A model generated the notes under the pieces. The model saw only the letters and a program-made list of their open reading frames with translations, was not told where the DNA came from and did not search any database. This document shows, in pieces, positions 20,486-49,600 of a stretch of DNA of 64,000 bases. Location: the IMG/VR virus record IMGVR_UViG_3300050119_000072, positions 22,656 to 86,655 of that record; one strand, written 5' to 3'. Every line of letters begins with the position of its first letter. Position 1 is the first letter of the stretch. The DNA is from a virus. The position numbers were made by a program, and so were the translations under genes.

Positions 20486-21811
20486 ATGCCTGCACCGGAC
20501 AAGCAGACCCAAGAGAGAGAATCGGCGGACCGCGCCAAAGCGGGCGTAGTCCCCGGGGAGGGCGGCGAAGCCCTCAATGCCATCGACGACGGCGCGCCAG
20601 GCGCCGATCCCGCACCGGCAGCCCGGCAAGCGCCGGCAGCCGAACCCGCACCGAAGCCTGCGCCCGTCCCGCGCAGTCGGCAGGACGACGCGCGCAACGC
20701 CATCACGGCGCGCTTCCGCACCGATCGCGGGCAGGAAGCCGCAGACAACGCCGACGATGTGAGCGAATTCACCCGCAGCGGCATGCCTCCGGAATTCGCG
20801 GAGAACAACGCGGCTGTCGCCGAACCGCCGCCGCAAGAACCCGAGCCGGCCGCGCCAGAGCCCACTGCCGCTGAGCCCGTCGCACTGCCCAAGACCGTGA
20901 AGGTCAAGGTGCGCGGCCAGGAGCAGGAACTCCCGCTCGAAACCGTTATTGCCGAAGCGCAAAAGGCGCTCGCCGGCGAAAGCTATCTCAGCGAAGGCCG
21001 AAAAGCGCTCGAAGAGATCGAGCGCCGCCTTCGCGCGACCCCAGATCCGGCTGTACGTGGCCAGACGCAGCAACACCCCGCTGCGACGAACGACGTGCAG
21101 CCTACTGCCCCGGCTCCCGCCGATGGCGTCGATCCTCAGCACCCCGAGGACCTGATCCAGAAGCTTATGGAGACGATGCAATTTGGCGACCCCGCCGAAG
21201 CCCGCAACCTGCTCGAAAACACCCTTTCGGGAATGGTCGCAGCCAAAGTGGCGCCCGCCGTCAACGCGGCACTGCAATCCGATCGCCTTAAAGACGAAGG
21301 CGCCAAGACCGCAGCCGTCCTCGCTGACTTTGAGACCAAGCACGCCGACATTGCAGCCGATCCACGCGCTCGCGCGGTGATCGAGCAAGATGTCATCGGC
21401 CAACAGGTCGATGATCTCCGCAAGCTCGGCGTCGACCCCGCCAAGATCAGGCCAGACGGATTGTCCCCGACACCAGGGGACATTGCCGAGGCCCACAAAT
21501 GGTATCGCTCGCAAGGGCACAAGCTGACCACTCCGGCAGACATGCTCGAGACCGGCTTGAAAAATTACCTCGATTGGCGCGGGCCGAAAACGAACACGCC
21601 ACCGGCCAACCCGGCAACGCCGCCAACGCTCGACGTCACTGTCGATCGCACGGTGCGCCGCCAGGCCATCCCACAACAGCCCGGACGAGCCGCAGTACCC
21701 CGTCAGGACCCTCAACGCAGCCAGCCCGCGCCAGCGCGGGACCGCTCGAGGATCGTCCAAGACGAGATCGCACGGCGCAACGCCCCACGGGGAAAAGTCG
21801 CCGTCAGCTAA
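20486..21811 (+). CDS. Capsid scaffolding protein
   Basis: Acidic/Pro-rich N-terminus, VKVKVRGQEQE...AQK motif, directly upstream of MCP. Confidence 0.8.
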   Translation: MPAPDKQTQERESADRAKAGVVPGEGGEALNAIDDGAPGADPAPAARQAPAAEPAPKPAPVPRSRQDDARNAITARFRTDRGQEAADNADDVSEFTRSGMPPEFAENNAAVAEPPPQEPEPAAPEPTAAEPVALPKTVKVKVRGQEQELPLETVIAEAQKALAGESYLSEGRKALEEIERRLRATPDPAVRGQTQQHPAATNDVQPTAPAPADGVDPQHPEDLIQKLMETMQFGDPAEARNLLENTLSGMVAAKVAPAVNAALQSDRLKDEGAKTAAVLADFETKHADIAADPRARAVIEQDVIGQQVDDLRKLGVDPAKIRPDGLSPTPGDIAEAHKWYRSQGHKLTTPADMLETGLKNYLDWRGPKTNTPPANPATPPTLDVTVDRTVRRQAIPQQPGRAAVPRQDPQRSQPAPARDRSRIVQDEIARRNAPRGKVAVS

Positions 21812-21847
21812 AGCCGACGGGCTAAGTCACGAAAGGAAACTGCCACC

Positions 21848-21868
21848 ATGGCAGGGCAACTCTGGGTT
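21848..21868 (+). CDS. Major capsid protein exon 1 (MAGQLWV)
   Basis: AAAGGA RBS, ATG 21848; frame hits TGA after 11 codons unless spliced; splice site uncertain by 1 nt. Confidence 0.75.
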
Positions 21869-22960
21869 AATGCCCCCATCTGATCGCAAGATCAGAATGT
21901 GCACCGGATGAATTGCTGGGATAGCCTTAGAGCCTTGATCGCTACAGCGTGGCCCGCAAGGGCGAGCGCGAACGCGAAAAAGATCAAGGATTGGCCAATC
22001 AGCAGCCAAGCGCCATAGGAATATGGCGAAGGTTCAACGACTAGGTAAAGTAATCCAGACCGGATGAAATGCCCAAGAGCCTCCGGGACTTCACTGCCAA
22101 TAATTGAGGTATACGCGGCGCTTTCTGCGAAGAGAGATAGTAGCGTCGCGGTAAATCCAGTGCAGCACCTTCGCGCTGCCACCATATCCTGACAACCTCC
22201 AGCATTCTTTTGCTCTGGCCTTCGTAAGGCTTATGCCAGTGTGAGTGTGGATGGCGTTCGCAACACCATCAATAAAAGCGGACGTACCAAGAAAATAGAA
22301 CGCCTTTTTCGGCAACGCGCGAATGTGCCCGTCGCCGTCTAAAGAACCTCTCAGAAAATGTCGTTCTAAATGCCATGGAATGTTGGGATATCGAAGCGTC
22401 ACCGACTTACCGGGAACGATGCCGTGTTTCGCTAGATCAGCTACGAGCTTCTTGCTGTCGAATGTAATCTGTTTTCGCGGGCCTGATCCTGGAAAACCAC
22501 CAGGGGCCTTATCGAAAACACGAGCATCCGATTGCATCGCTCGCCGCAGATCATAAAGAATGTGTTTGTCTCGCACCTGTAGGGCAATACTGACTTGCTT
22601 TCCAGACCGAGAGACAGACCCATCGGCTGAAAGAAGGCCAAGGGCGTAAGCCTTTTGCTCGGTGTTAATTACCGCAAAAAAGTCGTGATCGAGGGCGTAC
22701 CGATTGACCCTCGGCTTCGTTGGAATGCCGTAATGCCGTCTCCAATCGCCAACTGATCGGCCAGTAACGCCGAACATCTTGCCGATTTGCTCATCGTGCT
22801 TGGTCTCGTAAAGCGCCATGAGCTTTGTTTTGGATACGCGCATTCGTGGTAACCTCCGGTACATACGTGTATCGTACCAGCAGAAGAAGTCAAGATATAG
22901 TCTGTGCTGCATGGAGACATGCAGGAGCGCTTCATAAACAGGAGCGCGCGAACATCAGCG
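21869..22960 (+). ncRNA. Group I intron 1 in major capsid gene
   Basis: P GAATTGCTGGGA, Q AATCAGCAG, R GTTCAACGACTA, S AAGATATAGTC; P1 GGGT/GCCC; P9 CTGCATG-GAGA-CATGCAG. Confidence 0.9.
22091..22843 (-). CDS. Intron-encoded double-motif LAGLIDADG homing endonuclease with N-terminal HTH
   Basis: AYALGLLSADGS and HFLRGSLDGDG; GGAGGT RBS before ATG 22843. Confidence 0.9.
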   Translation of the reverse strand: MRVSKTKLMALYETKHDEQIGKMFGVTGRSVGDWRRHYGIPTKPRVNRYALDHDFFAVINTEQKAYALGLLSADGSVSRSGKQVSIALQVRDKHILYDLRRAMQSDARVFDKAPGGFPGSGPRKQITFDSKKLVADLAKHGIVPGKSVTLRYPNIPWHLERHFLRGSLDGDGHIRALPKKAFYFLGTSAFIDGVANAIHTHTGISLTKARAKECWRLSGYGGSAKVLHWIYRDATISLRRKRRVYLNYWQ

Positions 22961-23226
22961 ATACCCGCCGAGGGTGGATATATGTACAGCGACGAGCTGT
23001 CCGATGTCCTCCGTCAGCAGGTTCAGCCCCTGACCAAGATGAGGCAACTTTGCGATGCCGAGGACGGCACCAAAAAGGGTCTCAATCGCGGTGATAAATA
23101 CAACTGGGACGTCTATTCCAACGTCGGTACGCAAGGCCGGCGCTTGGACGAAAGCGCACCGATCCCGGAGACGGGCTTCACCATCATCCAACATCAGTTG
23201 ACTGTCTACGAAGCCGGCAATTCGGT
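22961..23226 (+). CDS. Major capsid protein exon 2
   Basis: IPAEGGYMYSDELSDVLR...EAGNSV, N4-gp56-type MCP sequence. Confidence 0.85.
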
Positions 23227-23230
23227 TCTC

Positions 23231-23938
23231 TTAAACGGAGCCGCCTTGTCTCTTGCTGCCTAGCTTCTTGATGTAGAGCCTCACTTTTGGACCGTATGTC
23301 TCGGTCTTTTTGTGGCACTCAAAACATAATGTGCGCGCGTTTGTTGGGTCTAGCGCCCGATCTAGCGCGACGCAGATTGGCTCGATGTGATCGACGTTAA
23401 GAACGATCCTTGAACCTCTGCCTTTATGATTGCGGTCCCCGCATTCTTGGCAAGTCCAACGGTCACGCTTCAATATCGATCTACGAAACTCCTTGTATGC
23501 GGCGGTATCGCGAACTCCGCCGTCACCACCGAGCCAGTTACCGTGGTCCGGACCAGATGCAATGCCGTTCGGGTATTGCGCCTTAGTCAGACCAGCATTC
23601 CAGGCCACTTGGCCTTTCTTCGATTGAAGCCACCGTTTGCGAAGCTTCGGATCATTCCGAAGTCTCTCGTTGACCTTGGACCAATCGTTGAACGGCTCAT
23701 GCCCTGGTTGAAAGCCCATCCGTTCCAATGACGGGTGATCGGCCTTTGTCAGACCGTCGTTCCATGCCGGGATATTTCCGGTTTGGGTTTTACGGCAGTT
23801 TGGATGATGCCCGCGCTTGTAAATGGGGAATGTCGCTTTCCCATTTCGATCGCGATGGCGGTAGTTAAGACGCGCCTTAAAGCGCTCTTTGCAGCCGCAT
23901 TGGCAGACCTTGGTTTGATAGACGGCTTTCGTTGGCAT
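23231..23938 (-). CDS. Intron-encoded HNH endonuclease
   Basis: CQCGC N-terminus, RD.WTCQEC, VDHIEP, N.RTLCFECH; probable start 23938. Confidence 0.9.
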   Translation of the reverse strand: MPTKAVYQTKVCQCGCKERFKARLNYRHRDRNGKATFPIYKRGHHPNCRKTQTGNIPAWNDGLTKADHPSLERMGFQPGHEPFNDWSKVNERLRNDPKLRKRWLQSKKGQVAWNAGLTKAQYPNGIASGPDHGNWLGGDGGVRDTAAYKEFRRSILKRDRWTCQECGDRNHKGRGSRIVLNVDHIEPICVALDRALDPTNARTLCFECHKKTETYGPKVRLYIKKLGSKRQGGSV

Positions 23939-23945
23939 ACGGTAC

Positions 23946-23975
23946 ATTATACAGGAAAGCAGAAACAGAAGGCAA
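23946..23975 (-). promoter_or_regulatory. Sigma70-like promoter for intron 2 HNH (leaderless)
   Basis: TTGCCT-N18-TATAAT-N7-ATG on minus strand. Confidence 0.65.
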
Positions 23976-24186
23976 GGAAAATCGCGTGAAACGGGGAAAC
24001 TCTCTCTGAGACAATCCCGTAGGAAGCTACCGAGGGCCTTTGGTTCGGTAGAACCTCTAGAGACTAGGCTGTGAGTCCCAACAATAATCAGCCCACGAGC
24101 GCGCGACGCGAAAGCGAAAAGATAGTCCCATCAGCACGGCGACGTGTTGGAAGCCGCGGATAAAGAGCCGCAGCGAAGAAGAAATG

Positions 24187-24892
24187 TCCGTACACCGGCA
24201 AGCTAGTTGCGTTGGCGAAGCATCAAGTCGCCGCGATCATCGACAAGACGTTGAAGGACGACGCGCGCAAGTATTTTGACATCGAAGCGTATTTGCAGTT
24301 CAAGAACACTGCACTGCGCGCCGAACCGTCGAGCGGCACGTCCACCACCGCGATCAACCTCGACACCACGGGCACTGCCTCGGTGACGAACAACGTCGCG
24401 TTGGGCACCGGTCACATCAAGGCGATCGTCGACACGATGAAAGAACGCAACGTGCCGCCATTTACGGCGGACGATTACGTTGGCGTGTCGCACCCATCGA
24501 CCTGGCGTAACCTCAAGAACTCGCTCGAGACCATTCACCAATACACGGAGACTGGCCTCGCGCACATCTTCAACGGCGAGATTGGCCGTTACGAAAGCTG
24601 CCGCTTTGTCGAGCAGACCTTCATTCCGAAGGGCGGCGCGGCAAATGCGACGAGCTACGATCCGTGGGGCGGCGTTGCGCAGCCCTGGACTAACGGGCTC
24701 AGCTCGTGGGCTTTCATCATGGGCGGCGACACGGTGACGGAAGCCGTATGCGTGCCCGAAGAAATCCGCGCGAAAATCCCTGGTGACTTCGGCCGCTCAC
24801 GCGGCATCGCCTGGTATTACCTCGGCGGCTTTGGTCTGGTCCACACCGATGCGCTTAATGCGCGCGTCGTGATGTGGGACAGCGCAGCTTGA
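24187..24892 (+). CDS. Major capsid protein exon 3 (spliced product about 330 aa)
   Basis: PYTGKL...NGEIGRYE..RFVEQT...EEIRAKIPGDFGRSRGIAWYYLGGF. Confidence 0.9.
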
Positions 24893-24907
24893 GGAGGGTC
24901 AGCACAC

Positions 24908-25660
24908 ATGGCATACGAACAGGCTGACATTCGCGAGTATAGCTGGGGTCTAGATCAGACCTTCGGCGCCACCACCGTCACGCATCAGATCGTCGGGCCC
25001 AAGGGCAAGGTCGGTTTTGTGCGCGATATCTCGGTCGATTGCGCCACGTCGTTCTCTGGAACGGTTATTCCGGAAATCGACATTGGCCTTTCCTCTGGCG
25101 ATTACACCTTTGGGCGCTATCGTCTTGGAACGACCGCGTCCTCCGGTTACGGCGTTGGCCCGCACAGCGCGAGCCAGGAGGCCATCACCGGCAACCCGCC
25201 GCGCACTCTTGCGGATTACACGGGCCACGTCGTTCTCGACGGCGGCCCGCTCACGTCGCAAGGCATCGCCGGCGGCTCGTACAGCACGCAAGTGCCGGCG
25301 GGCCGTATTCCGGCATCGGGCTGGACGATCACGAACGTCGTCAATGGCACTAGCAACGTCTGTCGCGTTTACGCGAACGGATTGTCGGCGGCGCCTGGTG
25401 GCATTCAGGTCGGACAGACCGTGACGGTGCAGGGCGTCAGTGGCGCTACCGGCGTCAACGGCATCGCCAAAGTGTCGGCGGTCGACACCACGAACTACCA
25501 GTGGTTCGAACTCGGCGGCACGACCTTCGGCGGCACTTACACCAACGGAGGTATCGCCTTCCTGAGCGTGTTCGTGACCTTGCTGCAGGGCACGGGTTCT
25601 GGCGCTGGCGGCGGTTACGTCCGCGTCAAGATCCAGTGGATCGGTCCGGATACGCCGTAA
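24908..25660 (+). CDS. Capsid decoration/cement-like protein
   Basis: GAGGAG RBS directly after MCP, Gly/Thr-rich beta protein. Confidence 0.7.
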   Translation: MAYEQADIREYSWGLDQTFGATTVTHQIVGPKGKVGFVRDISVDCATSFSGTVIPEIDIGLSSGDYTFGRYRLGTTASSGYGVGPHSASQEAITGNPPRTLADYTGHVVLDGGPLTSQGIAGGSYSTQVPAGRIPASGWTITNVVNGTSNVCRVYANGLSAAPGGIQVGQTVTVQGVSGATGVNGIAKVSAVDTTNYQWFELGGTTFGGTYTNGGIAFLSVFVTLLQGTGSGAGGGYVRVKIQWIGPDTP

Positions 25661-25974: not shown

Positions 25975-26688
25975 CTACAGTAAGCGTCCGTTCCTTTGCG
26001 CAAAGACAAGCGGGTCTGTCGCGTGCTTTTCCCGATTGCATTTAATACAAAGTAACTGAATGTTCTCAATGTAATTTGAGCCGCCTTTTGCTAATGGAAC
26101 ATAATGGTCGACTTCGTACTTTCCATTTAGCCTGCGGAAACAGAACGCGCATTTGCCGGACTGTTTATCATATAGGGCGTTGACTTGTTTCTGCGTGTGG
26201 CGACCTGCTGCCCCTCTTTCTTTGGCGCGACGGTTGCGGCGTTTTTGTTTACGCACGTCAGGATGACGTTTCTCCCACGCGCGTTTGGTGGCGTTTATCC
26301 GTATTTTGTGGCGCTCTCGGATGCGCCTGTCTTGTTTTCTTACTTTCGCAGGGTGCGTTTGCCTTTCTTTCTTATGTTTCTCTCTAATCGTTTCCGCGTT
26401 CCGCGAATAATAATCTTCGCCACAAGCTCGCAGCCCTTTTTGATACGCCTTAGCGCGCGGTAGTTCTACGTCTCTATTCCTCTCGTAGTGCCTGCGCCTC
26501 GCAGCCTTTTTCTTCGACGGATTTGCTGCGCTCCATATACGATAGGCTTCTGCGCAACACTCAACACATTGATTTTGGTGAGTGTAGCGCTCGCATACAT
26601 GACCGTTCTTGCACGAGACGCCAGAGTAATAACGCTTTAGCCCAGCGGCTTTGGCGTCGCGTCTACGCAGAATCATGGTGGTGCCCAT
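25975..26688 (-). CDS. Freestanding HNH homing endonuclease
   Basis: GLKRYYSG..CKNGH..ERY, CVEC, CAFC, VDHYVPLAKGGSN...NIQLLC..CN. Confidence 0.9.
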   Translation of the reverse strand: MGTTMILRRRDAKAAGLKRYYSGVSCKNGHVCERYTHQNQCVECCAEAYRIWSAANPSKKKAARRRHYERNRDVELPRAKAYQKGLRACGEDYYSRNAETIREKHKKERQTHPAKVRKQDRRIRERHKIRINATKRAWEKRHPDVRKQKRRNRRAKERGAAGRHTQKQVNALYDKQSGKCAFCFRRLNGKYEVDHYVPLAKGGSNYIENIQLLCIKCNREKHATDPLVFAQRNGRLL

Positions 26689-26738
26689 GACAAAAACTAG
26701 CACCGCCCCACGATAGCAATCAACCGAAAGGAAACACA

Positions 26739-27053
26739 ATGGCTAAAGATATGTCGAAGGGTCCCTACAAAAAGGATCACCCAGAAAATTTTATTGAAGG
26801 AGCCTTGACCGGTGGTCATGGTCCCTCGGAAGGCATCCACGAAACGCACGTCGATCGCCCGCACCAGACCATCAATACCGCGGTCGCAATGGACAACGTC
26901 AAGCTCGCAATGCCGATCAAGACCTCGATCCTCGACGATGAGTTCCCCGGCGGCGTGGACAACCTCAAGCATTCACTCAGCGGCGCGTCCGCGGTGAACG
27001 AGGAAGTCGGCGCGGCTGGACCGGTACGCCACATTATCGTACCTGGGCATTGA
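26739..27053 (+). CDS. Hypothetical protein
   Basis: AAAGGA RBS, GC3-rich. Confidence 0.7.
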   Translation: MAKDMSKGPYKKDHPENFIEGALTGGHGPSEGIHETHVDRPHQTINTAVAMDNVKLAMPIKTSILDDEFPGGVDNLKHSLSGASAVNEEVGAAGPVRHIIVPGH

Positions 27054-27054
27054 C

Positions 27055-27651
27055 CTACAAGTTGCTCCCGCCTGTCTCATCGATGGGCGGGGGCTTCTTG
27101 TGGTATCGTCGGTCTGCGCGTTTGGGTCGGCGGTTTAATGCCTGCTCGCTCCAAGTTGCCCATCGACAATTTGACGGCATGTAATTGCCGTCCCGGTCTG
27201 GGTATCTGTCGAGGGTTAGGTGTTCTGCGAAGCCGTTGGCTAATGCCCAATCACGGAAGCAGTGGACCGAATGCCATTCGGCGCACACGCGAATCCCGCG
27301 GCCGCCGTAGTATTCAAATTTCTCGGTCTTTGGATTCTCGCATCTATTCAGCATTGCCCTCCAAGCCCTGTATATCTTCGTGCCGTCCAATCCATGCTTC
27401 CGGTTAGCGCGGCCAGTCGCGGCAATAGCTTCGCGCTTTTGACACCCGCAACTCTTGGTATTGCCGCTTCTGACGCTTTCGAGGCGAGCGACCACCATTG
27501 TTCCGCAGTCGCATCGAAACCGCCAAAGTATCTTTCGACGTGTCCCCGCTTCGCGGCCCGCAGATTTAACCGCGGTCAATCTATTGAACCGCTGTCCAGG
27601 AGAGGTTTTTCGGCTATAGGGTGCGGCAGCCTTTGTCATGGGTCCATCCAT
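27055..27651 (-). CDS. Freestanding HNH-like endonuclease (YGGRGI type)
   Basis: GQRFNRL, CDCG, SCGC, YGGRGI.VC.EW, LTLDR...GNY.P.NCRWAT. Confidence 0.88.
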   Translation of the reverse strand: MDGPMTKAAAPYSRKTSPGQRFNRLTAVKSAGREAGTRRKILWRFRCDCGTMVVARLESVRSGNTKSCGCQKREAIAATGRANRKHGLDGTKIYRAWRAMLNRCENPKTEKFEYYGGRGIRVCAEWHSVHCFRDWALANGFAEHLTLDRYPDRDGNYMPSNCRWATWSEQALNRRPKRADRRYHKKPPPIDETGGSNL

Positions 27652-37633: not shown

Positions 37634-40600
37634 ATGGCACTCGCTGACCAGTTGGGCGCGGTTGATCCGCAAGGCATTGTCACCGGCTTGGTTGCCGACC
37701 AAGCGCCCGACCTTGTCCAAAACGATGGCAGCGTAGACCCGCAGTCCGTTCTCGATCGACTGATCCGCAAGGGTCTCAGTTCGGACCAGCAGAAAGCGCT
37801 TTCCGACGCGAAAACAAATGCGGCGCCAGACGGGATCGACCAGTTCGGCAAGACCAAGGAACAGGTCGACGCCGAGCCGCAGCCGGATTTCACCCAGTTC
37901 GGATCGGCGACGCCGCAATCCGCTCAACCGATACCAGGTGGTGGCACCGTCGCTGGTGGCGCTTGGGCAGGAGCGAAGTCTCTCGCGCAAGCGCCGATCA
38001 CGGCAACTGGCAAAGCCATTCAGGCGGCGGCGAGGACGGTCAACGATATCACCCCGACAATGGTGCAGACGGCCGGCGGCGAAGGTTCGCCGTTGTCCGT
38101 GGAGGATTTGACGCCGCCACCGGCTGAGCCGGTCCAGAAAAATCCGGTTCTGAGCAAAGTCTATAACGCCGGACAGGCGGTGCGAAACTTTGGCGAGCAA
38201 CAGATCCCGGTCTCCGAGGCGGAGAAGAAAACCTACCCGATATGGACCGGAGTCGGCTCTGCGGTCGGGACCCTTGCGCCGCTCGTCGCGCTTGGTGCGC
38301 TAAACCCCGAAGCGGCGATCGCTGGTGGCGCGGCCCTGTTCGGTGGCTCCGGATCGCAGGATACCTATGAGGCCGCGATCGCGCACGGCGCAGATCAAGA
38401 AACCGCCAGCGCGGCGGCCAATCTCTCAGGGTTAGCAAACGCCGCACTCGGTTCTGCGCCGATCGGCCTCGTCCTGCGGCCGTTCCAGAAGTTCATGCCC
38501 GCTGCGTCAGGCTATGCCGTGCGCATGCTCGCGCAGGCAGCGCAGAACGGCGTTGTTTTCGCCGGCATCGGCGAGGCGCAGGAATACATCGGCGAGCAAA
38601 TCGCCAAGGCCTATGACCCGAAAGCTGGTTATTCGCTCGATGCGAACCGCCTGATTGTGAGCCTCCTGTCCGGCGGATTGCTCGGCGCGGGCCACGCGGC
38701 CTACGACCGATATGCCACGGGGAAGGCCGTCTCCGACCTCTACAAGCTGAACCAACCGGCGGCGGGTGGCGAGGCTGATGATACCGCCCCCGGCGCGCTT
38801 CCGCGCCCCGATGCTGGCCCCGGTCCCGGACCTGGTCCTGGACAAGGGCCCGGGCCTGATACCGGCACAGGCGCAGGTGCTGGTGCCGGGCCTGGCGAAG
38901 CCGAGCCAGAATTCCAGCCGGACTTTTCTCCGGCAAAGCGCAGCACGCTCGAAAAGGTGGCTGCCGCCTACAGCACAAACCTCAAAGACGGTCACTCGGC
39001 AAAGGATATCTCGTCGTGGAGCGACGCCCAGTTGATGGCGTATCTCAATGATGCGGATAAAAGATCAAATCCGGCGAAAGCTGACGCGCCCGTCGCGACA
39101 CCCGGCACTCCCGACAACCCGATCAACCTGCAAACACCGCAGGACCTTGCGCATGCCGTTTCGGTCGCCGATGAGACATCGAGCCACGCGCAGGGCGAAG
39201 CCAATAACGCTCCGCGCGTGCACGCGGTCTGGAACGATCTGCCGATTACTTTGGAAACCGCCGGCGCCAACAATGTGCGACGCGGTGTGGCCGAGGACGG
39301 AACGCCATGGGAACAATCCATGGGCGGCCCGTCAGGATATTTCAAAGGAACGATCGGCGCTGACGGCGATCATGTCGATGTGACCGTAGGACCGCAGCCG
39401 GGGTCCAAGCAGGTCTACGTCATCGACGAGAAGGCGGCCGACACCGGAGACTTCCGCCAGCACAAGGTCATGATCGGGTTTGGAAACCAGATCGACGCTC
39501 TCAATGCCTATACGCAGCGCACGCAAGGCAAATCGGCAAAGATGGTCGGCGGCGTGCGCCTGTTCACGCCAGAACAGTTGAAGGACTGGCTCAAGACCGG
39601 AGACACCAAAGCGCCTCTCTCCGACACGATGACCGCCGCGGCGAAAGCCAAGGACGAGAGCATCCTGCCGGAAGATGCCGTACCAACGTCGCAGCACACA
39701 GACGCTGTTGATGGCGCGCTGCGAGCCGCCGGCGTCAATCCAGATGCCGTCCGCCCTGCCGACAAGGCCCGCGCCGCCGAGATCCACGCCGAAGGCGCGC
39801 CGGCAGATCAGGCTTTCCCCGTCGCCGTCGTGCGCGGGCTGGTCGATAGCGGCCACATCACACCGGACCAAGTTAGAGAGGCGATAGGCGATGAAGCAGC
39901 CGAAGGGGTATTGGGCACCGGCGGCCGGGCTCAACGCGGCGCACGCGCTGAGACACATGGCGCCGGCCCTGGTGGGGAGGCTGCCGCGCCCGCAAATGGC
40001 GTCGGTCCACGCGGCAATGAAGGTGGGAATGCCGAAGCTGCCAGCGGCGGCGAAAGTGGCGAGCCCGCTGTCGGCCAAAAGCCCGCTGGCAGTGCCGCGG
40101 GCGGGGAGCAACGTCGGGAAAACAATGGCGGGGCCGGCAACGGCGCTGCCGCAGGGGTCGCCAATGACCACAACGTCGCTGGGAGCGAACCCGGCGAGCG
40201 CGCTGAGCAAGCCCATCCTGAGCACAAAGCTACCGAAACTCCCGCCGCTGCCCTGATCGGCGCGCGCGTCAAATCGATGCCCGAGCACAAGGTCGTCGCC
40301 GCCGATGGAAAGTCGGTGCGCGTCGTCCCGGTGGTGACCGAGGCATCGAAGCTCATTGCGTCGTCAGATCCCGGATACGACAAGGACATTCAGCCGCGCG
40401 AGCGCGACCGCGCCGCGGCTCAAGCGCAGGTGCGCGAGATCGCGACCCGCCTTGATCCGGAACGTCTTGGATATTCCGCAGAAGCCGACCGTGGGGCGCC
40501 GATCGTCGGCCCCGACGGCATGGTCGAAAGCGGCAACGGCCGAGTAGCCGCCCTTCGTGCGCTCTACCGCACGAAGTCACCCAATGCCGAGCACTACCGC

Positions 40601-43600
40601 GCTTGGCTGGCTGTGCAGGGCGTTGACCTCTCAAAATACAAAGAGCCGGTGCTGGTGCGCCAGCGCGTGACAGAACTCGACGCCGCCGGCCGGCGCGGCT
40701 TTGCGATCGCCGCCAACCAGGCAGCCACCCTGTCAATGTCCGCGCCCGAGCGCGCTTTGGCCGACGCCGACCACCTCTCGTCGAACGTCCTCGGCCTCAT
40801 CAGAAACGGCGCCAACCTCGGTGCCGCCGAAAACCGTCCCTTCGTGCGCGCCTTTATTGCAGCGCTGCCTGCCTCCGAGCGCAGCGCGCTTGCAAACAAA
40901 GCCGGCGCCCTGAGCCAAGAGGGTCTCACGCGGGTTAAAAACGCCGTTCTGGCAAAGGCTTATGGCGACGCCGATGTGATCTCCCGGATCACGGAAGCCA
41001 CCGACGACGAAACGCGATCGGTGTCGAACGGCCTGGTTATGAGTGCTCCCATTTGGGCAAAATTCCGCGGCGAGGTCGAGGACGGCCGCGTGCGCCGGGA
41101 ATTCGACTTGACGCCCGATCTTATGGAGGCGGTCAAGCGCGTCACCGATATCCGCTCGCGCGGAGAAAATCTGGCTGGCTTCCTTGCGCAACATGATGGC
41201 TTTGACCAATTAAAGTCAGAGGTCGAGACCTGGATGCGGATGATGTACGATCCGCATGGCAAGCGGGTCGCGTCCGCCGCTGACATCGCGAAGGCCATCA
41301 GTTTCTACGCCGAAGAGGCAGGCAAGGTAACGACCGACCCGCGCTTGGGTCTCGATATCCCAGAGATAGAACCCGATGAAATCCAACGTGGTGCACATGC
41401 GAAAGCCCAAGACGTTCCGACCGGGGCCCGGGTTGGCAATGGGCCGAGCGGCAATGCGGCTCGGCAGGCACCGGGGCGACGTGGGGCTGGCGAAGGCGGG
41501 GAAGAACCTGGTCGACCAGAGCAACGCAGCGCTGACGGCGGGCGACTCCGCGACCAGCCCAGCCTCTTCGACGAGCCAGGACCCGACGGCAAGCGACAGT
41601 CCGTCCTCCCCGGCACCGAGCCTATCAGCGATGCCCGGCTTGCCCAGCGACGCGCCCTCGAGCGACTGAGGCCGAAGGCTGAGCAGAAGCCTGCGTACGA
41701 AGGGCTATTTTCACCACGCGAAAAGCAGGTCGACCTCGAAGAGGCGATCGCCAAGGCCAAGCCGGAAGGCATCGAAGCCGTCGCCGTGCGCGACCCGCAG
41801 AGCGGCCGCGTCTGGTCGGCCAAGGCGGTTCTCCACCCCGATCTGATCGAGCGGGCGGCACAAGACCTTGGCGTGCCAGAGGACAAGGCAGCGGACCGCC
41901 TAGAGCTTGGTTTCAAGAGCGACCGGGGCAGATTCCTCACGCGCGCCGAGGCGAGCGCCCTGGTGGGCGCCGGCGAGCTCCACGCGACCGAACTGAGTTG
42001 GACCCAGCGGGAATTGGCGGAAGCCGGGGTCGAGTCGTATCCCGGGGCTGCCAAAGCCAAGGCGCCTGTTACGCCAGCCGTAAGGGCGCCTATTGCAAAA
42101 GCGGCCGCCGCACCCAAAATTAAGAAGCAAGGCGCACCTGCTGCCCCCTCACTCTTCGATTGGGAAGAACGCAACAATGAGCGTCCAAGAACTCAAGGCG
42201 ATGGCGAGAAAACACTGGGAGGAATGGCTCCCGGACCGGGTGAAGGACCTCAAGTCACAAGGGCGCCTGAACGAGTCCTTGCAGGGAGCGGCGGACAGCG
42301 CGCAGACGGAGATCGAGCACCTGATGAAGCTGGGCTACCAGGAATTCGAGGCCAAGGAAGTCGCCCTGCCGAAGTTCATCCTGCTGCCGCCGGAGCCGGA
42401 TCAGGACGGCCTGGACGAGGAAATGCGGCAGGAACTGGCGGAGAAAGAAAGCCAGTACCGGAAGTTCCCACCGGTCCAAACGTAAAGCCGGCCGAGCGCC
42501 CGACACTTCCGGCAATCAATTACCGCATTACGGACGAGACCGAACTCGGCAAGGGCTCGGAAGGCGTCAAATTCCGCGACAACATCGCGGCCATCCAGGC
42601 GCTCAAAAACATCGAGCGCGAGGACCGCCGCGCGACGCCCGAAGAGCAGCGCCAGCTTGCGCGCTATGTCGGGTGGGGCGGACTGGCCAATGCCTTCCCC
42701 GATCTCAAGGGCGCATTCAAACCCGACTGGAAAGATCGTGGCGAGCAGCTCCAAGGTCTGCTGAACAAGGACGAGCACAGGGCCGCGCAGCATTCGACGC
42801 TCGCCGCGCACTACACGTCCAAGACCGTTATCGACGCCATGTGGAAGGCGGCGCAGCGGCTTGGCTTCAAAGGCGGCCTCTCGCTCGAAACGTCGCTCGG
42901 CACCGGCAATTTCATCGGCTTGGTGCCTGACGCGATCGCCGGCAAGACGCGCTTTGTCGGCGTCGAACTCGATGGCGTCACCGCGCGTATAGCAAAATTG
43001 CTATATCCGCAGGAAACGGTACTGCACTCCGGCTTCCAACGGGTGCCGATGCCGGACGGCGAATTCGTACTGAGCATCGGCAATCCGCCGTTTGGCTCCG
43101 AATCCCTGCGCTTCCAGCATAAGCCGGCGCTGCAGGGCTACTCGATCCACAATCAGTTCTTCCTGGCTGCGCTCGATGCTCTACAGCCGGGCGGTCTGCA
43201 TATCGGCGTTGTCTCTCATTTCTTGATGGATGCGCAGGATCAGTCCGCACGCCAGGCAATGGCGGTGAAGGCCAACCTGCTCGGCGCCATCCGCCTGCCT
43301 GATACCGCGTTCAAGGAAAACGCGCGGACAGAGGTGGTGACCGATATCGTGCTGATGCAGCGGCGCACGCCGGCTGATGAGAGCCAGATGGCCGAGTTGG
43401 TGCGGCTCGCGAACACGCCTGGGCACGGCAAGGAAGCGCAGGACGCCCGCGCGGTAGCGCGCAAAAAATTGACCGACGAAGCGCCATGGATTGAGACCGA
43501 CAAGGTCCGTGACCCGCTCGGCGGCGAGCCGATGACGGTCAACCAATACTTTGCAAAGCGACCGAAGATGATTGTCGGTCGGTTGGAGCGCTCTGGCACG

Positions 43601-46600
43601 ATGCGGGGCAAAGAGGAAGTCAACGTCAAGCTGGCTAAGGACGCCGATTTTGCCGGCATGCTAGACGCCGCTGTCGAGAACCTTCCCAAGAACAAGATCA
43701 ATCTCGACAACGAGGCGATCGACAACACGCTAGAGCGCTACAAGACGCTCGCCGATAGCATCCAGATTGCGCTCGCCGGCCATGAAGTCGGCCATGTCGA
43801 ATTCAACGACCGGGGGCAACTGACCCAGATCAGCGAGCGCGAAACTCCGTCCGGCGATTACGAGCCGACGCGCCGCGTGCTCAACGCGCAGTCGCCGTGG
43901 TCCCGCAAACTGCTGATGGACCCCAACGGGCAATGGTACACGCTGGAACCAAAGCTCAACGCCAAGGGCGAAAAGGTAAAGACCGGATTGCGCCTGGTCT
44001 ATGAGCGCAAGACGTTCCCCGATAACAAGGTCCCGGAAAACCTGCGGCTCGGCCAGCAGCGCTATGACCGGCTGGCCGATCTCGCTCGCCTGCGCGATCT
44101 CACCCGCAAACAGATCGTTTTAGAAACGCAGGACGCGCCGCCTGCGGATATGGAGAATAATCGCGGGCAGCTTGCGGCGTCCTACCGCGCGTTCACAGGC
44201 AAGCACGGCTTGCTGCATGAGCCGAGCAATATGCGGCTGCTCAACGAAATGCCGGACGGTCCGCTGCTCATGTCGCTGGAAAGCGGCTACCGCCCGGCCG
44301 TGACGACGGCCAAAGCCGCGCGCACCGGACAGCCGGTGCAGAAGCCATCGGCCAAGCCATCTGCCATCTTGTCTCGCCGCGTCGTGCCTAAATATGAGCC
44401 GCCGACCAAGGCCGAAACGGTTGGCGACGCCATCGGCATTGTCCTGTCCGAACGCGGGCGCATGGACCTCGCGCGCATCGGCGACTTGCTCGGCATCCCG
44501 GAGGACAAGGTTCCCGAGAAACTGAGCGAGGGGGACAAGCCGCTTGCCTTCCTCAATCCGGAAACAAAGGATTGGGAAGCGCGCCACGATTATCTCACCG
44601 GACCCGTGCGGCAGAAACTCATTGCCGCGCGCGAGGCTGGCCTCGCCAAGAACGTCAGCGAACTCGAAGCGGTACAGCCCGAGCGATGGGGGGCCGATAA
44701 GGTCACGCCCTATGTAGGGTCTAATTGGATACCGCCGAAGGTTTACGAGGATTTTGCCAAGCAACTGCTTGGCGTCGACGGTGCGGCGGTCAATTACTCG
44801 AAGGCCACCAATTCGTTCAACATGCTCACCGACGAATACGGGGGGGATAAGCAGGCGGAGTGGGGCACCCCAGACATGCCAGCGGATGCGATCCTCCGTG
44901 GCATGATGAATTCGCGTATTCCAAAGGTGATGCGCGAAGTGAGCGACGGCAACGGTGGCACACGGCGCTACGAGGACAAAGAGGCGTCATCCCTCGTCGT
45001 GCTCAAGGCGAACGAGATCGCGAGCGCCTTCGCCGATTGGGTCTTCCGTGACGCCGATAGGCGCAACCAGCTTGTCGACATCTTCAACGACAAGTTCAAT
45101 ACGCGCGTGCAGCGCCAGCATGACGGCGCTTTCCTAGCCCTCCCCGGCAAAAACCCGGAATATGGTTTGCGCCGCCATACCCGCAACGCCATCCGCCGCG
45201 GCATTTACGAACGCAATATGCTGGTCGACCATTGCGTCGGATCGGGCAAGACGTTCCTGGCGATCGCCCGCGCCATGGAGCGCAGGCGCATGGGGCTGTC
45301 GCGCAAGCCCATGGTGGCCGTCCCCAACCACCTGGTCGAGCAATGGGCTGCCGAGGCGCACCGGCTCTATCCAGGCGCCAAGGTGCTCGCCGCCGGCAAA
45401 AACCAATTCAATCGCCAGAACCGCCGCAAGCTCTTCGCCAAGATCGCTACGGGGGACCATGACCTTGTCATCGTTCCGCATTCCTCTTTCGGCTTTATCG
45501 GGATCTCGCCGGAGACCGAACTGCGCTTCCTCGAGGATCAATTGCGGGTGGCGCACGAGGCGGTACAGGCCGCGGCGGAGGAAGCAGCCGCTTCCGGCAT
45601 CGGCGGCTTCCGCAAGCCGTTCACGGTCAAGGAAGCCGAGCGCCTGGTTACCAATATTGAGACCCGCATGGATGCGCTCCGGTCCGCGCGCCGAGACAAT
45701 ATGCTTAGTTTCGAGCAGATGGGCGTCGATGACCTGACGGTCGACGAGGCGCACGAATTTAAGAACCTGTTCTATTCCTCGCGCATGACCGGCGTGCGCG
45801 GCATGGGAGACAAGACCGGCTCGCAAAAATCGTTTGACCTTTACAACAAGGTCCGGGTGCTCAACGAAAGCCCGACGGGCACGGTTACGTTTTTGACGGG
45901 CACGCCGATATCTAACAGCGCCGTCGAAATGTATACGATGATGCGCTATCTCGCGGCGAAGGAACTGCGCGAGCTTGGCATTGAGCATTTCGACGCATGG
46001 CGCTCGCAATTCGTGTCTGCCGAGCCGAAATGGGAGCCAACGGAATCGGGTGGCTTGAAGGAAGTCACGCGCTTGGGCCGCAACTGGTCGAACATGCGCG
46101 CGCTGATGGACCTGTATTATTCCTTCACCGACTCGGTCACTCAGGAAGACATCAACAAGTGGTACGCCGAGGATAACGACGGCGCCGATTTCCCCATTCC
46201 GAAGGTCGTTGGCGGCGGCCGGCAGACGACCGTCGTGCAGCCGACCCCGGCGCAGCAAAGCATCCTGCACCAGGTCATCGACGGCTTTAACGACCTGCCG
46301 AACGAGCCTGACCCCGATGTGCGCAACGCCGAGCGCCTGCGGCTTATGGACCGGGCGCGCAAGGTGTCGCTCGACGCCAGAGCCGTCGACCCCCGCAATC
46401 CCAGCAAGGAAGAGGGCGGCAAGCTCGAGGCGATATCGGACCAGGCCGCGCGCATCTATCACAAGTGGACGAAAGACCTCGGCGCCCAACTCATCTTCCT
46501 CGATCGCAGCGTGCCGAAGGCCAAGGGCGACGACAAGATCATCAAGCAATACGATGATTTGATTGCGCGGCGCGATAAGGCCGTCGCCGACAAGGACGAG

Positions 46601-49600
46601 GGCGCGTTTCGCGCGGTCATTGACGACCTGGACAAATTCAACGCCAACGAGATCGAGGCTCTGCGGTCGGCCCAGAACGGCGGCTGGAACGCTTACGACC
46701 AGATCAAGAAAAACCTCATCGCGCGCGGTGTCCCGGCTGACGAAGTCCGCTTTATCCAAGAGGCCAATAACGACGCCGAAAAGCAGGCCCTGTTCGATGC
46801 TGTCAATGACGGCCGTATCCGGGTGCTGATTGGCTCTACCCAGCGCATGGGCGCCGGCACCAACGTCCAGGAGCGCCTTGTCGGGCTGCACCATGGCGAT
46901 GTGACCTGGAAGCCGTCAGATATCGAACAGCGGGAAGGCCGCATTATCCGGCAGCTCAACAAATTGCTGGACAAGTACGGCAAGGATTTTGCCGTCGAAA
47001 TTCACAACTACGTCACCGAGCGCACGGTCGACGCCAAAATGTGGGATTTGAACTCCGAAAAACTGCGCATGATTAACGGCATCCGTAAGTACGACGGCGC
47101 CTTCAACATGGAGTTTGAGGACGAGGACGCCGTAGGCATGGCCGAGATCGCGGCCTTGGCCTCCGGTGATCCATTGCTCATGGAGCGCGTGAAGCTCGGC
47201 GGCGAAATTGAAAAACTGGAAATGCAGGAACGCGGCTTCCGCCGCAAAATGTTCGGCATTGAGGACGCGGTGGCTGGGGCACAGCGCGCCATCACCGACT
47301 ACCCCGCCAAGATCGTGGAAGAGAAAGCGGCGTCCGACGATATGTATCGGCGGGTCGACGCGCTCAAAAAGGCAGTCGACGCCCGCAGCGTCACGATCGA
47401 TGGCAAAACGTACAAGTCGCGCATGGAAGCGACGGTCGCCGCGACCGACCGCATTGCGGAGATCAGGGGCGCTGACGAGGGCGCGAAATACTCGATCAAT
47501 GTCGACGGCGCCGACCTCACCAACAAGGAGACGATCCACGCAGCGATCGCCAGCGCCTTGGGAGATCAGGAGCCGTTCGAGGCCAAGATCGGCGGGGAGA
47601 CGGTCCGCGGTCGCTACGCCGCGGCCCACGCCATCCTCGAAAAGGTTCGTCCGATTATTTCGGAGATCACGGTCGAAAACCCGGAGCACACGGTAAAGCT
47701 GGGGACCATGCTGGGTGCTGATTTGGAAGCGACCGCGCGCCGCTCGGCTGCCGACGACTTCTACGTGACGCTGGCCCTGCGCCAGGACGGCCGCACCCTA
47801 GCTGCCGCGCAGACGTCGGGCCCGGTCAGCCGAAAAGAGCCGGCGCCGGCGACAATAGCCAGCGGCATCCGCAACCTCGAAAAGGACATCAACAATATCC
47901 TGCTTTCGCGCGGCGCGCTGATGCAGTCCCGCGTGGACGCCGCGAAAAAGGATCTCCCGGGATTGACCGCCCAGCTTGGGCAGACCTTCCCGCAGGCCGA
48001 AAAGCTGGTGGCCTTGCGCGATCGCCAGCGCGATCTCATCAATGAGCTCGATAGGCGGACCAAAGAGGCCGAAGGCAAAGGTGGGCCGCTCCCGACGCCG
48101 CCGAAACTCATTGGCGCCGGCGGCCGCCCCGTCGACGCCAAACTGACGGGCGTCGATGCGGAACAAGACGCGTTTCTCAAATCCAAGGGGATGACCTGGG
48201 AAGAAGCCGCGGCTCTGAGCAACAACCACCTGCGCCAGCTAGATCGCCAGTGGAGCGACGAGCACCCTGGCGAGCATGTGCCGCTGGTGCGCGTTGAGCG
48301 CTTTGATCCGGCTGATATCGAGGCCGATCCGGCGCGCTTCCAATACAGGGACAACGTGGTCAACGCGGAGACCGGCGTTACCGACAAGCCGATGCAATCC
48401 GGGTGGCAGCAAACCGCGCCGATGGTCGTCTGGCAGGATAAGGCAGGAGGAAATTTCGTCGTCGACGGGCACCATCGCCTTGAGCGCGCGAAGGCGCTTG
48501 AAGCGGCCGGCGAGAAGGTGCCGCTCGATGCCATCACCTTGCGCGAGAAAGACGGCATTACGCCGCAAATTGCCAAGGATTTTGGCCAGCGCCGCAATGA
48601 GCATCGCGAGGCCAACCGAGACCTGCGCGCAATCCCGGACGTCGACGATTATTTCGCGGCGGTGAAAGAGCGTCAGGAAGCCAATTCGGAAGCTGGAATA
48701 CCCATTCGCGCCGCCAATTCGGCCGAGACTGGAGTGCAAGCGGTTGGCATGAATTCGTCGGCGGACGCACCGCCCTCGACCCAGCCTTTACCCGGCTCCC
48801 ATGTCTCGACCTTTAGCGAGCCGCCGGCCATTTTCAGCAGCCGCGAGACGCCGCCATCGATCTTTGAAGGACCGACCAGGACGGTGAAGTTCTCGGATTT
48901 CTCGTTGGGTGCCATCGATCCAGCCTCTAAGAAAAATATAGTACAAGGGTCGAGCGATTTCAACGCTTTGCACGCCGAGGCGCAAAAAAACAAGGCCAGC
49001 CTTCTCAATAGGTTAGAAGAAATTGCGCGGGACGTACCAGGCGCAAAGGTCTATGGCGCCCGAGTCAAGGACTTGCCGGGCCTCGTCGAGAAGATCACGG
49101 CCAAGGGTCGCGCTCCCAATACGATCTCGGACTATCTCGGCGCGCGCGTCATCGTTGACAGCCCGGAGGCCATGCACGCCTTCATCGATCGCCTCGATCG
49201 GACCGGCGCCATTATTGAGGCCGAGAATTTCATCCGGTCGAGCAAGTTCGGATACCGCGCCTATCACCTGCAAGTCGGGCTTGGCGACGGCATGTCGGCG
49301 GAGCTGCAACTGGTGCCGCGTCCGCTTGCCGATGTCATGAGCGCTTCGCACGCGCGGCGACAGCCTGTGAAGCGGCTTGTCGCCGGAAAATCTCCGGCAG
49401 ACGACGCGCGCATCGAGCGCGCGTTGGCCGCGTCAACCAAGATACTGGACACCGCCTGGGCAAAGGCACCGGAGGCGTGGCGCACCTATGATGAGGATCA
49501 GCACCAGCAGCCGGCGGCGTTCGCAGAAGAAGCGCCGCAGGGCTGGACCGGCGCCGACACCCTTCCCGACTACACCCGCGCCTATACCGATCTTGGGCCG

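What the first reader, a model, noticed from the sequence alone, without database searches (positions are those of the whole stretch)
21848..24892. Major capsid gene split by two group I introns, with a 7-codon first exon
Seen: two full P/Q/R/S cores. Removing 21869-22960 and 23227-24186 gives a continuous ~330-aa MCP (MAGQLWV-IPAEGGYMYS...GNSV-PYTGKL). Established: characterised phage group I introns are mostly in DNA-metabolism genes. Two in the gene for the most abundant virion protein make capsid synthesis doubly splicing-dependent.
Basis: partly seen in the sequence, partly recalled or inferred. Interest (0 to 1): 0.75.

Follow-up and report, generated by a model that had tools for sequence, protein, structure and literature searches.

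The report
Capsid gene with two self-splicing introns

Summary
Confirmed. Window 21848-24892 holds an N4-gp56-family major capsid gene in three exons. Joined, they give 993 nt = 330 aa, gap-free against 330-aa uninterrupted relatives (up to 97% identical). Both inserts are group I ribozymes: RF00028 gives 47.2 bits (E 8e-10) and 30.4 bits (E 8.6e-5), both under the 50-bit cut-off. Homologous introns in relatives score up to 86 bits and show compensatory pair changes.

Intron 2 (23227-24186) is canonical: U.G wobble in a 7-bp P1, 5-bp P10, terminal G.

The only wobble pair is U21867.G21872. The solution that is in frame with a terminal G in both this phage and its one homologue is 21867-22958, cut after G21866. 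That is one base before the wobble U, as shown by RT-PCR for group B IStrons. Residue 7 is then Ala, not Val.

Each intron carries an antisense endonuclease gene (LAGLIDADG, HNH).

Capsid-gene introns with antisense endonucleases are published (mycobacteriophage LittleE), and this scan's notes record the layout in at least 42 other genomes. Relatives carry introns at about 14 capsid-gene positions. No RNA data could be obtained. This is a new member of a known kind.

The parts
21848..21866 (+).
   Evidence: MAGQLW is the conserved N-terminus of the family. A Shine-Dalgarno-like AAAGGA lies at 21832-21837 (read directly).
21867..22958 (+). Intron 1, group I, 1092 nt (reader: 21869-22960). P1 is 21864-21867/21872-21875 with wobble U21867.G21872. 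P2 is 21879-21885/21890-21896. The P3-P7 half spans about 21898-22090. J8/7-P7-P9-P9.1 and the tail span about 22890-22958.
   Evidence: RF00028 47.2 bits, E 8e-10. The homologue L017 scores 50.7 bits. P1 and P2 fold as stated. P4-P6 covariation: 16 of 35 pairs. Junction analysis.
22091..22843 (-). LAGLIDADG-type homing endonuclease gene, antisense, inside the P8 loop of intron 1. The open frame runs up to 22912; the start at 22843 is inferred from the L017 homologue.
   Evidence: Pfam LAGLIDADG_3 30.6 bits (cut-off 22.5). phrog_4645 'endonuclease' E 1.4e-46. 71% aa identity to the L017 intron ORF and 51% to the L009 ORF.
22959..23226 (+). Capsid exon 2 (reader: from 22961)
   Evidence: Colinear with residues 7/8-96 of uninterrupted relatives.
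23227..24186 (+). Intron 2, group I (IA2/td-like core in its last ~270 nt), 960 nt. P1 is 23223-23229/23237-23243 with wobble U23226.G23240. The P10 guide is 23235-23239. The terminal G is 24186.
   Evidence: RF00028 30.4 bits, E 8.6e-5. P1 stem. Only one U/G junction lies among the best colinear joins. It fits a consensus fold of 8 capsid-gene introns in which 19 of 31 pairs have compensatory changes. A homologue sits at the same site in L052.
23231..23947 (-). HNH homing endonuclease gene, antisense, between P1 and P2 of intron 2. Its last codons overlap the guide sequence.
   Evidence: Pfam HNH 28.9 bits (cut-off 21.4). 18 PHROG families at E up to 0.001, 16 of them named 'HNH endonuclease'. 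37% aa identity to the antisense ORF of the L052 intron.
23946..23975 (-). Promoter-like site (TTGCCT, 18 nt, TATAAT) directly upstream of, and overlapping, the first ATG of the HNH gene
   Evidence: 10 of 12 matches. The scan as a whole found 4 sites against 3.2 expected, so this is suggestive only.
24187..24892 (+). Capsid exon 3, including the TGA stop
   Evidence: 48% identity to the PTXU04 'putative major capsid protein'. 97% identity to P0015, named 'N4-gp56 family major capsid protein' by its source.

Best explanation
[quoted passage not shown] Both must be removed to make the 330-aa N4-gp56-type capsid protein.

Intron 2 works in the textbook way. The last four exon bases, CGGU, pair with GCCG of the guide; the U.G wobble marks the cut; the first five bases of exon 3 pair with the adjoining ACGGA (P10); and the terminal G 24186 marks the 3' site. 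Codon 96 (Val) is rebuilt from GU + U.

Intron 1 most likely spans 21867-22958 and is cut after G21866, one base upstream of the wobble U. That U pairs with G21872 directly next to the P1 loop. Exons are ligated after G22958, giving Ala at residue 7.

Each intron houses a homing endonuclease gene on the opposite strand (LAGLIDADG in the P8 loop of intron 1; HNH between P1 and P2 of intron 2), probably transcribed from its own promoter. These enzymes would cut intron-less capsid alleles of co-infecting relatives and copy the intron in.

Shown here: exon colinearity, ribozyme cores, covariation, P1/P10 pairings, and endonuclease families and their orientation. Inferred: actual splicing, the exact intron 1 junction, endonuclease activity and promoter use.
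For: Colinearity:
- Joined exons are 330 aa with no gaps at either junction against PTXU04 and D279 and P0015.
- 71 of 80 IMG/VR loci carry the gene as one uninterrupted stretch matching residues 1-330; most of the 80 metagenome loci do too.

Ribozymes:
- RF00028 hits at E 8e-10 and 8.6e-5.
- In interrupted relatives, 9 hits in 6 loci with 8 above the cut-off, and 7 hits in 15 loci with 6 above.
- Compensatory changes occur in 16 of 35 pairs and 19 of 31 pairs. P2, P6 and P9.1 of intron 1 differ from L017 by paired changes.

Intron 2 junction:
- It is the single U/G pair among the best colinear joins. The P1 stem is found by two tools.

Intron 1 junction:
- Cutting after GGG and after the G that precedes CG/CA is in frame, ends in G and keeps family length in both phages. 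It also reproduces the intron-less DNA, TGG GCN AT(A/C) CCC.
- Group B IStrons insert after AGGG/TGGG/GAGG and begin with a U that forms the wobble next to a loop. BcISt1 was shown by RT-PCR and sequencing to splice after the G (PMC4227781, section 18 and passages).

Endonucleases.
Against: - No RNA evidence: no RNA run was listed, so splicing itself is not shown.
- Both window introns score below Rfam's curated 50-bit cut-off.
- Only one homologous intron at this site exists in the collections searched. That contig (L017) also has another intron whose colinear 3' border is an A, so it may not be a reliable guide.
- I did not test whether the intron 1 ribozyme is related to IStron ribozymes.
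- The capsid assignment rests on homology and names. TIGR04387 scores 41.8 bits on relative P0015, under its cut-off of 60. The fold model was poor (pLDDT 57); its best match is the N4 capsid, at Foldseek E 7e-3 only.
Confidence: 0.85

Rival explanations
1. Intron 1 splices exactly where the reader placed it (exon ends at U21868, intron ends at G22960). Residue 7 is then Val and the first exon has 7 codons.
For: It has U before and G at the end, is in frame, and gives 330 aa. Val at residue 7 occurs once among 62 distinct intron-less N-termini, so it is tolerated.
Against: U21868 can pair with the guide G only through a 3-base loop plus a U/C mismatch (-0.3 against -5.2 kcal/mol). In L017 the same border would be A before and A at the end. 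The ligated DNA would differ from intron-less alleles at two bases of codon 7, whereas the shifted join reproduces them.
Confidence: 0.2
2. Intron 1 uses the canonical wobble site (after U21867) and a canonical terminal G. This is out of frame for nearby Gs, so the capsid gene is broken (a defective genome). Alternatively the 3' site lies further upstream (G22950) and adds three residues.
For: The wobble helix is conserved. An in-frame solution with three (window) or four (L017) extra residues exists (read).
Against: The record is an 86,655-bp genome with terminal repeats, rated 100% complete. Ribozyme and endonuclease are conserved between two phages whose introns are only 70% identical. The tail motif G[CU]GAACA that would become coding is intronic in L123, where the junction is unambiguous, and it would be read in different frames in the two phages. 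The spacing between W6 and GG12-13 is fixed in all 62 intron-less versions found by a pattern that requires that spacing, and also in PTXU04 and D279.
Confidence: 0.08
3. The inserts are not spliced. They are free-standing endonuclease insertions, and the capsid protein is made from an internal start or as separate pieces. An intein origin is a further variant.
For: Free-standing antisense HNH genes do sit between neighbouring late genes. An in-frame GTG/ATG lies upstream of exon 2 inside intron 1.
Against: Exon 1 would be a 6-7 residue peptide. The inserts carry complete group I cores on the capsid strand and have exact guide pairings to both flanking exons. The in-frame starts are not conserved in L017. 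Inteins are excluded because the endonuclease frames are on the other strand and the + strand frames hold stops.
Confidence: 0.03

Closest known systems
Major capsid gene intron of mycobacteriophage LittleE (Pope et al. 2013, PMC3706429; passages read)
   Same: A phage major capsid gene is interrupted by an ~0.8-kb intron, probably group I (U before, G at the end). An HNH endonuclease gene inside it is transcribed in the opposite direction to the capsid gene. Splicing was shown by RT-PCR and N-terminal protein sequencing.
   Different: LittleE has one intron; here there are two in one capsid gene, of two ribozyme types and with two endonuclease families. LittleE is a siphovirus of a Gram-positive host with an HK97-like capsid carrying a delta domain. 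This is an N4-gp56-type capsid, and no splicing data exist for it.
Group B IStrons, e.g. BcISt1 of Bacillus cereus (Tourasse et al. 2014, PMC4227781; section 18 and passages read)
   Same: The 5' exon ends in GGG. The first intron base is a U that forms the U-G pair right next to a loop. For BcISt1, splicing was shown to occur after the G, one base before that U. Intron 1 here (and in L017) has the same arrangement, and only that join is in frame with a terminal G in both.
   Different: IStrons carry IS200/IS605-type transposase genes and sit in bacterial chromosomes and Clostridium phages. Intron 1 carries an antisense LAGLIDADG gene in a phage capsid gene. Relatedness of the ribozymes was not tested, and the shifted cut is inferred here, not measured.
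Phage T4 td / nrdB / nrdD introns (IA2 subgroup); recalled, not checked in a call
   Same: Intron 2 shows the P7.1/P7.2-type extra helices between P7 and P3', GNRA-capped P8 and P9, and a guide that pairs with both exons (read from the alignment).
   Different: The T4 endonuclease genes lie on the same strand as the intron and the host genes are for nucleotide metabolism. Here the gene is antisense and the host gene is structural.
Phage Twort gene with three group I introns (Landthaler & Shub 1999; seen only as a title in the reference list of PMC6669764) and intron-rich 'Jug' gut phages (PMC12880540; passages read)
   Same: Several group I introns in one phage gene. In Jug phages, many essential phage genes are interrupted (terL, nrdD and DNA polymerase genes), and 37 of 76 predicted introns were supported by metatranscriptome reads.
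   Different: Those cases are in other genes and other phage groups.

Membership tests
Group I intron (RF00028), intron 1 | Conserved catalytic core (P3-P9, with the P/Q/R/S elements) recognised by the covariance model | tested here: met
   47.2 bits, E 8e-10, full model 1-253. This is 2.8 bits under the curated cut-off. The homologue at the same site in L017 scores 50.7 bits, over the cut-off. P4-P6 covariation: 16 of 35 pairs.
Group I intron (RF00028), intron 1 | 5' exon ends with a U that forms a U.G wobble with the guide in P1 | tested here: not met
The only wobble is U21867.G21872. A cut after it is out of frame with the nearby terminal Gs. The in-frame join follows G21866, a known rare variant in group B IStrons. 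The cut site itself was not measured.
Group I intron (RF00028), intron 1 | Intron ends with G (omega G) | tested here: met
The L017 homologue has G only under the preferred join.
Group I intron (RF00028), intron 2 | Conserved catalytic core recognised by the covariance model | tested here: inconclusive
   30.4 bits, E 8.6e-5 in a 7.5-kb search, and not listed in the whole-window search. It does fit the consensus fold of 8 capsid-gene introns, 6 of which are over the cut-off; 19 of 31 pairs have compensatory changes.
Group I intron (RF00028), intron 2 | U.G wobble at the 5' site, P10 with the 3' exon, terminal G | tested here: met
   U23226.G23240 lies inside a 7-bp P1. UCCGU of exon 3 is complementary to ACGGA 23235-23239 (read directly). 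G24186 is the terminal G. This is the only U/G pair among the best colinear joins.
Group I intron (both) | Self-splicing with guanosine, or spliced RNA in vivo | not testable with these tools
   No RNA run was listed for the stretch.
LAGLIDADG homing endonuclease | LAGLIDADG domain | tested here: met
   Pfam PF14528 30.6 bits, over the 22.5 cut-off, one stretch (residues 63-103). phrog_4645 E 1.4e-46. Cleavage activity was not tested.
HNH homing endonuclease | HNH nuclease motif | tested here: met
   Pfam PF01844 28.9 bits, over the 21.4 cut-off, residues 166-214. Activity was not tested.
N4-gp56 family major capsid protein (TIGR04387) | Match to the family model over its cut-off | tested here: inconclusive
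   Tested on the 97-98% identical relative P0015: 41.8 bits against a cut-off of 60, E 8e-11. phrog_1357 'major head protein' E 1.8e-12. Relative P0020 scores Pfam Phage_capsid_3 at 31.5 bits, over 23. Sources name the relatives 'N4-gp56 family major capsid protein'. Best Foldseek hit is the phage N4 capsid, E 7e-3, from a low-confidence model. A profile search against solved structures found 0 matches.

The most novel reading that the evidence does not exclude
Intron 1 is a homing-endonuclease-carrying phage member of the rare class of group I ribozymes that cut one nucleotide upstream of the U.G wobble; so far this has been shown by experiment only for transposon-linked group B IStrons. If so, the 'shifted' splice-site rule is a property of a ribozyme lineage shared between IStrons and phage homing introns. 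This capsid gene, with a canonical intron 2 beside it as an internal control, would be a natural system for working out how the cut site is measured.
Probability: 0.5. Interest if true: 0.55.

Novelty: new member of a known kind. Interest (0 to 1): 0.4.

Why it matters
The capsid protein is needed in hundreds of copies per particle. Two obligatory splicing steps in its mRNA make virion yield depend on ribozyme efficiency, and they expose intron-less relatives to two endonucleases aimed at an essential late gene.

Across relatives, the same ~330-codon gene carries introns at about 14 different positions. Different ribozyme and endonuclease types occupy the same site in different phages. The family is therefore a good natural data set for intron mobility.

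The likely one-base-shifted 5' splice site of intron 1 is a rare, testable exception to the U.G rule.

For annotation, gene callers split or truncate this capsid gene. Database proteins of 226-254 and 316 aa look like such fragments.

Tried and rejected
- RNA evidence: no RNA holder was listed for 21700-25000.
- Rfam at gathering threshold found nothing in the window. The whole-window E-value search listed only intron 1.
- More introns at the codon-7 site: an intron-core pattern in IMG/VR gave 4 contigs. One was the L017 contig and the other three had the core in other genes. An exon 1 + P1 pattern gave only the L017 contig in IMG/VR. In the genome collection it gave 3 chance matches, none a capsid gene.
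- Database proteins of 316 aa (P0017, P0022, P0033 and others) start at Met15 and may carry an intron at codon 7 or 13.
- Intron 1 junction models rejected or down-weighted:
  - a terminal C (cut at the wobble, 3' border after C22959), because a terminal C cannot occupy the G site (established mechanism);
  - a 3' site inside the G[CU]GAACA tail, which is intronic in L123;
  - exon 1 ending at U21863, which loses the invariant Trp and has no pairing;
  - a ribosomal +1 shift on a canonically spliced mRNA, for which no known shift motif is present.
- P10 for intron 1 is too weak to decide between the remaining models.
- Inteins, group II introns and a split capsid protein were rejected; see the rival explanations.
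- Structure: the AlphaFold model of relative P0015 was poor (mean pLDDT 57). Foldseek gave only weak capsid matches, and the profile search of solved structures gave none.
- Literature: searches found no paper on introns in N4-gp56-type capsid genes. That is only as wide as those four searches. Supplements were not opened.
- The output was cut in the middle, so the rows for part of L061 and for L099, L108 and L123 were not seen.
Full report
**Setting.** The window is bases 22656-86655 of an 86,655-bp virus record with direct terminal repeats, rated 100% complete. The late genes around the finding are all on the + strand.

**The gene.**
- Exon 3 (24188-24889 in frame) matches capsid proteins of 42 phage records at up to 48% identity. 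These include the 'putative major capsid protein' of Escherichia phage PTXU04.
- The large protein collection holds 4220 relatives at E up to 0.001. The best, P0015, is 97% identical over exon 3 and 330 aa long, and several sources name these proteins 'N4-gp56 family major capsid protein'.
- Joining 21848-21868, 22961-23226 and 24187-24892 by coordinates gives 993 nt = 330 aa. This aligns to PTXU04 (323 aa) and D279 (317 aa) without a gap at either junction, and is identical to P0015 at 322 of 330 positions.
- Family models on P0015 give TIGR04387 at 41.8 bits (below its cut-off of 60), phrog_1357 'major head protein' at E 1.8e-12, and weak Pfam capsid hits.
- A structure model was of low confidence (pLDDT 57). 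Its best fold match, still weak, was the phage N4 capsid.

**Are the inserts introns?**
- Rfam's group I model hits the + strand at 21858-22924 (47.2 bits, E 8e-10) and 23920-24149 (30.4 bits, E 8.6e-5). Both are under the 50-bit curated score, so nothing was listed at 'gathering'.
- The capsid reading frame runs into stops in both inserts.
- Independent support comes from relatives:
  - Of 80 IMG/VR loci, 71 carry the gene as one uninterrupted match to residues 1-330, 3 are cut by the locus end, and 6 are interrupted.
  - Of 80 metagenome loci, 12 are interrupted. Two of these are the same contigs as IMG/VR loci. Four more start their capsid match deep inside the contig.
  - In those interrupted genes Rfam finds 9 group I hits in 6 loci (8 over the cut-off, up to 75.6 bits) and 7 hits in 15 loci (6 over the cut-off, up to 86.4 bits).
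- Consensus folding of six intron-1-type cores gives 35 pairs, 16 with compensatory double changes.
- Folding of eight capsid-gene introns including intron 2 gives 31 pairs, 19 with such changes.

**Intron 2 (23227-24186) is textbook.**
- Exon 2 ends CGGU. These bases and the next three intron bases pair with GGAGCCG in a 7-bp P1, with wobble U23226.G23240.
- The first five bases of exon 3 (UCCGU) are complementary to ACGGA, immediately 5' of the P1 part of the guide; this is a regular P10. The intron ends in G24186.
- The same held for 15 of the 16 interruptions whose rows were visible in that truncated output.
- L052 has a homologous ribozyme at the same site.
- L009 has a different ribozyme there: the intron-1 type, with a LAGLIDADG gene 51% identical to that of intron 1.

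**Intron 1 is real, but its borders need care.**
- Only one homologue sits at the same site, in L017. It is 70% identical (768 of 1092 aligned bases), with paired changes in P2, P6 and P9.1 and an intact antisense endonuclease gene 71% identical in protein.
- In both phages the only wobble helix is GGGU/GCCC, with the U.G next to the loop.
- A cut after the wobble U (21867) is out of frame with the nearby terminal Gs.
- One solution works in both phages. Cutting after the GGG (G21866) and after the G that precedes CG (window) or CA (L017) is in frame, ends in G and keeps family length. It also reproduces the DNA of intron-less alleles, TGG GCN AT(A/C) CCC, giving Ala7 as in P0015.
- Among 62 distinct intron-less N-termini, residue 7 is A 29, S 22, T 7, L 2, G 1 and V 1.
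The paper states that they insert after AGGG, TGGG or GAGG and begin with a U whose U-G pair is followed directly by a loop. It also shows by RT-PCR and sequencing that BcISt1 splices after the G, with the U absent from the ligated exons (PMC4227781).
The protein is 330 aa in the first two cases.

**Endonuclease genes.**
- Intron 1 carries a LAGLIDADG-type gene on the minus strand (22091-22843; the frame is open to 22912) in the P8 loop.
- Intron 2 carries an HNH gene on the minus strand (23231-23947) between P1 and P2. Its last codons overlap the guide sequence.
- A TTGCCT-18-TATAAT site lies at 23975-23946 on the minus strand, and its -10 box overlaps the first ATG. A start at the fourth codon (ATG 23938) on a leaderless mRNA is therefore possible. 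The scan as a whole was not above chance, with 4 sites against 3.2 expected.

**Mechanism (inferred).**
- The late pre-mRNA folds and both ribozymes excise themselves. The endonucleases, made from their own antisense transcripts, cut intron-less capsid alleles of co-infecting relatives and drive homing.
- The start codon lies only 16-19 nt from the P1 strand of intron 1. An initiating ribosome and P1 formation would therefore compete, and un-spliced RNA would yield only an 11-residue peptide ending at a UGA in P2 (read). The title of a 1993 paper in the IStron reference list says that translation across a 5' splice site interferes with splicing; I did not read that paper.

**What is known.**
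- A capsid-gene intron with an oppositely oriented HNH gene, spliced in vivo, is published for mycobacteriophage LittleE. That paper also cites a capsid-gene intron in phage Tuc2009 (PMC3706429).
- Multi-intron phage genes and intron-rich phages are published.
- This scan's notes list 46 findings in at least 42 genomes that hold the searched words (major, capsid, group, intron, antisense, homing, endonuclease). All 8 notes shown describe capsid-gene introns with antisense endonuclease genes. Further notes describe non-canonical group I junctions.
- The finding is therefore sound but is a new member of a known kind.
- Its particular points are:
  - two introns of different types in one capsid gene;
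  - a 19-21 nt first exon;
  - a probable one-base-shifted 5' cut;
  - membership of a phage clade whose capsid gene carries introns at about 14 positions, roughly codons 7, 8, 13, 35/36, 54, 56, 57, 89, 93/94, 96, ~123, ~144, ~186-191, 279, 306 and 309/310. These positions come from tblastn ends and junction enumeration and several are approximate.

Noticed in passing
window 25975-26739 (-) and 27055-27651 (-): Two further antisense endonuclease genes sit between late genes: an HNH / endonuclease VII-like gene, and one matching phrog_374 'HNH endonuclease' at E 1e-60. In relatives L006 and L007 the flanking genes are only about 50-90 nt apart, so these are free-standing intergenic insertions, not introns. 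L017 shares the second one (65% identity).
   Followed up: partly
L130:2675-2714: A 40-nt insert lies after codon 13 of the capsid gene. It has a P1-like pairing (GGCGGUU with GACCGCC, including a U.G), U before and G at its end, and is in frame, but it has no catalytic core. It resembles the 'mini-introns' noted elsewhere in this scan.
   Followed up: partly
L017:5129-5456 versus L123:3453-3744: Homologous introns lie in codon 306. The L123 junction is canonical (U / G). In L017 the colinear 3' border follows an A, and no nearby G keeps the frame without adding about four residues.
   Followed up: partly
L009:3237-4499 versus window 23227-24186 and L052:3664-4499: The same insertion site (codon 96) is occupied by two different ribozyme/endonuclease types in different phages: intron-1 type with LAGLIDADG in L009, and td-like with HNH in the window and L052. 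All three have the guide core GGAGCCG.
   Followed up: partly
L061:1576-1835 and 1908-2124: Two group I model hits (69.7 and 53.2 bits) lie in tandem inside a single ~570-nt interruption near codon 189 of the capsid gene. This may be tandem or nested introns.
   Followed up: no
L088 (IMG/VR giant-virus MAG contig), L086, L087: The 26-base P3/P4 core pattern of intron 1 occurs exactly in three other viral contigs in other genes. One is a 175-kb contig labelled as a giant-virus MAG, where the intron is short and has no endonuclease gene.
   Followed up: no
window 21840-21854: A 5-bp hairpin (CUGCC / GGCAG) encloses the capsid start codon. L017 keeps it with a C-to-U change that gives a G.U pair. 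Intron-less relatives listed mostly lack it.
   Followed up: no
window 37634-53062 (+): A single open reading frame of 5142 codons lies downstream in the same phage.
   Followed up: no
proteins P0017, P0022, P0033 (316 aa); P0025, P0032, P0037, P0040 (226-235 aa); P0019 (254 aa): These database 'proteins' of close relatives start at Met15, just after codon 96, or inside an intron upstream of GNSV. They look like gene-caller fragments of intron-split capsid genes.
   Followed up: no
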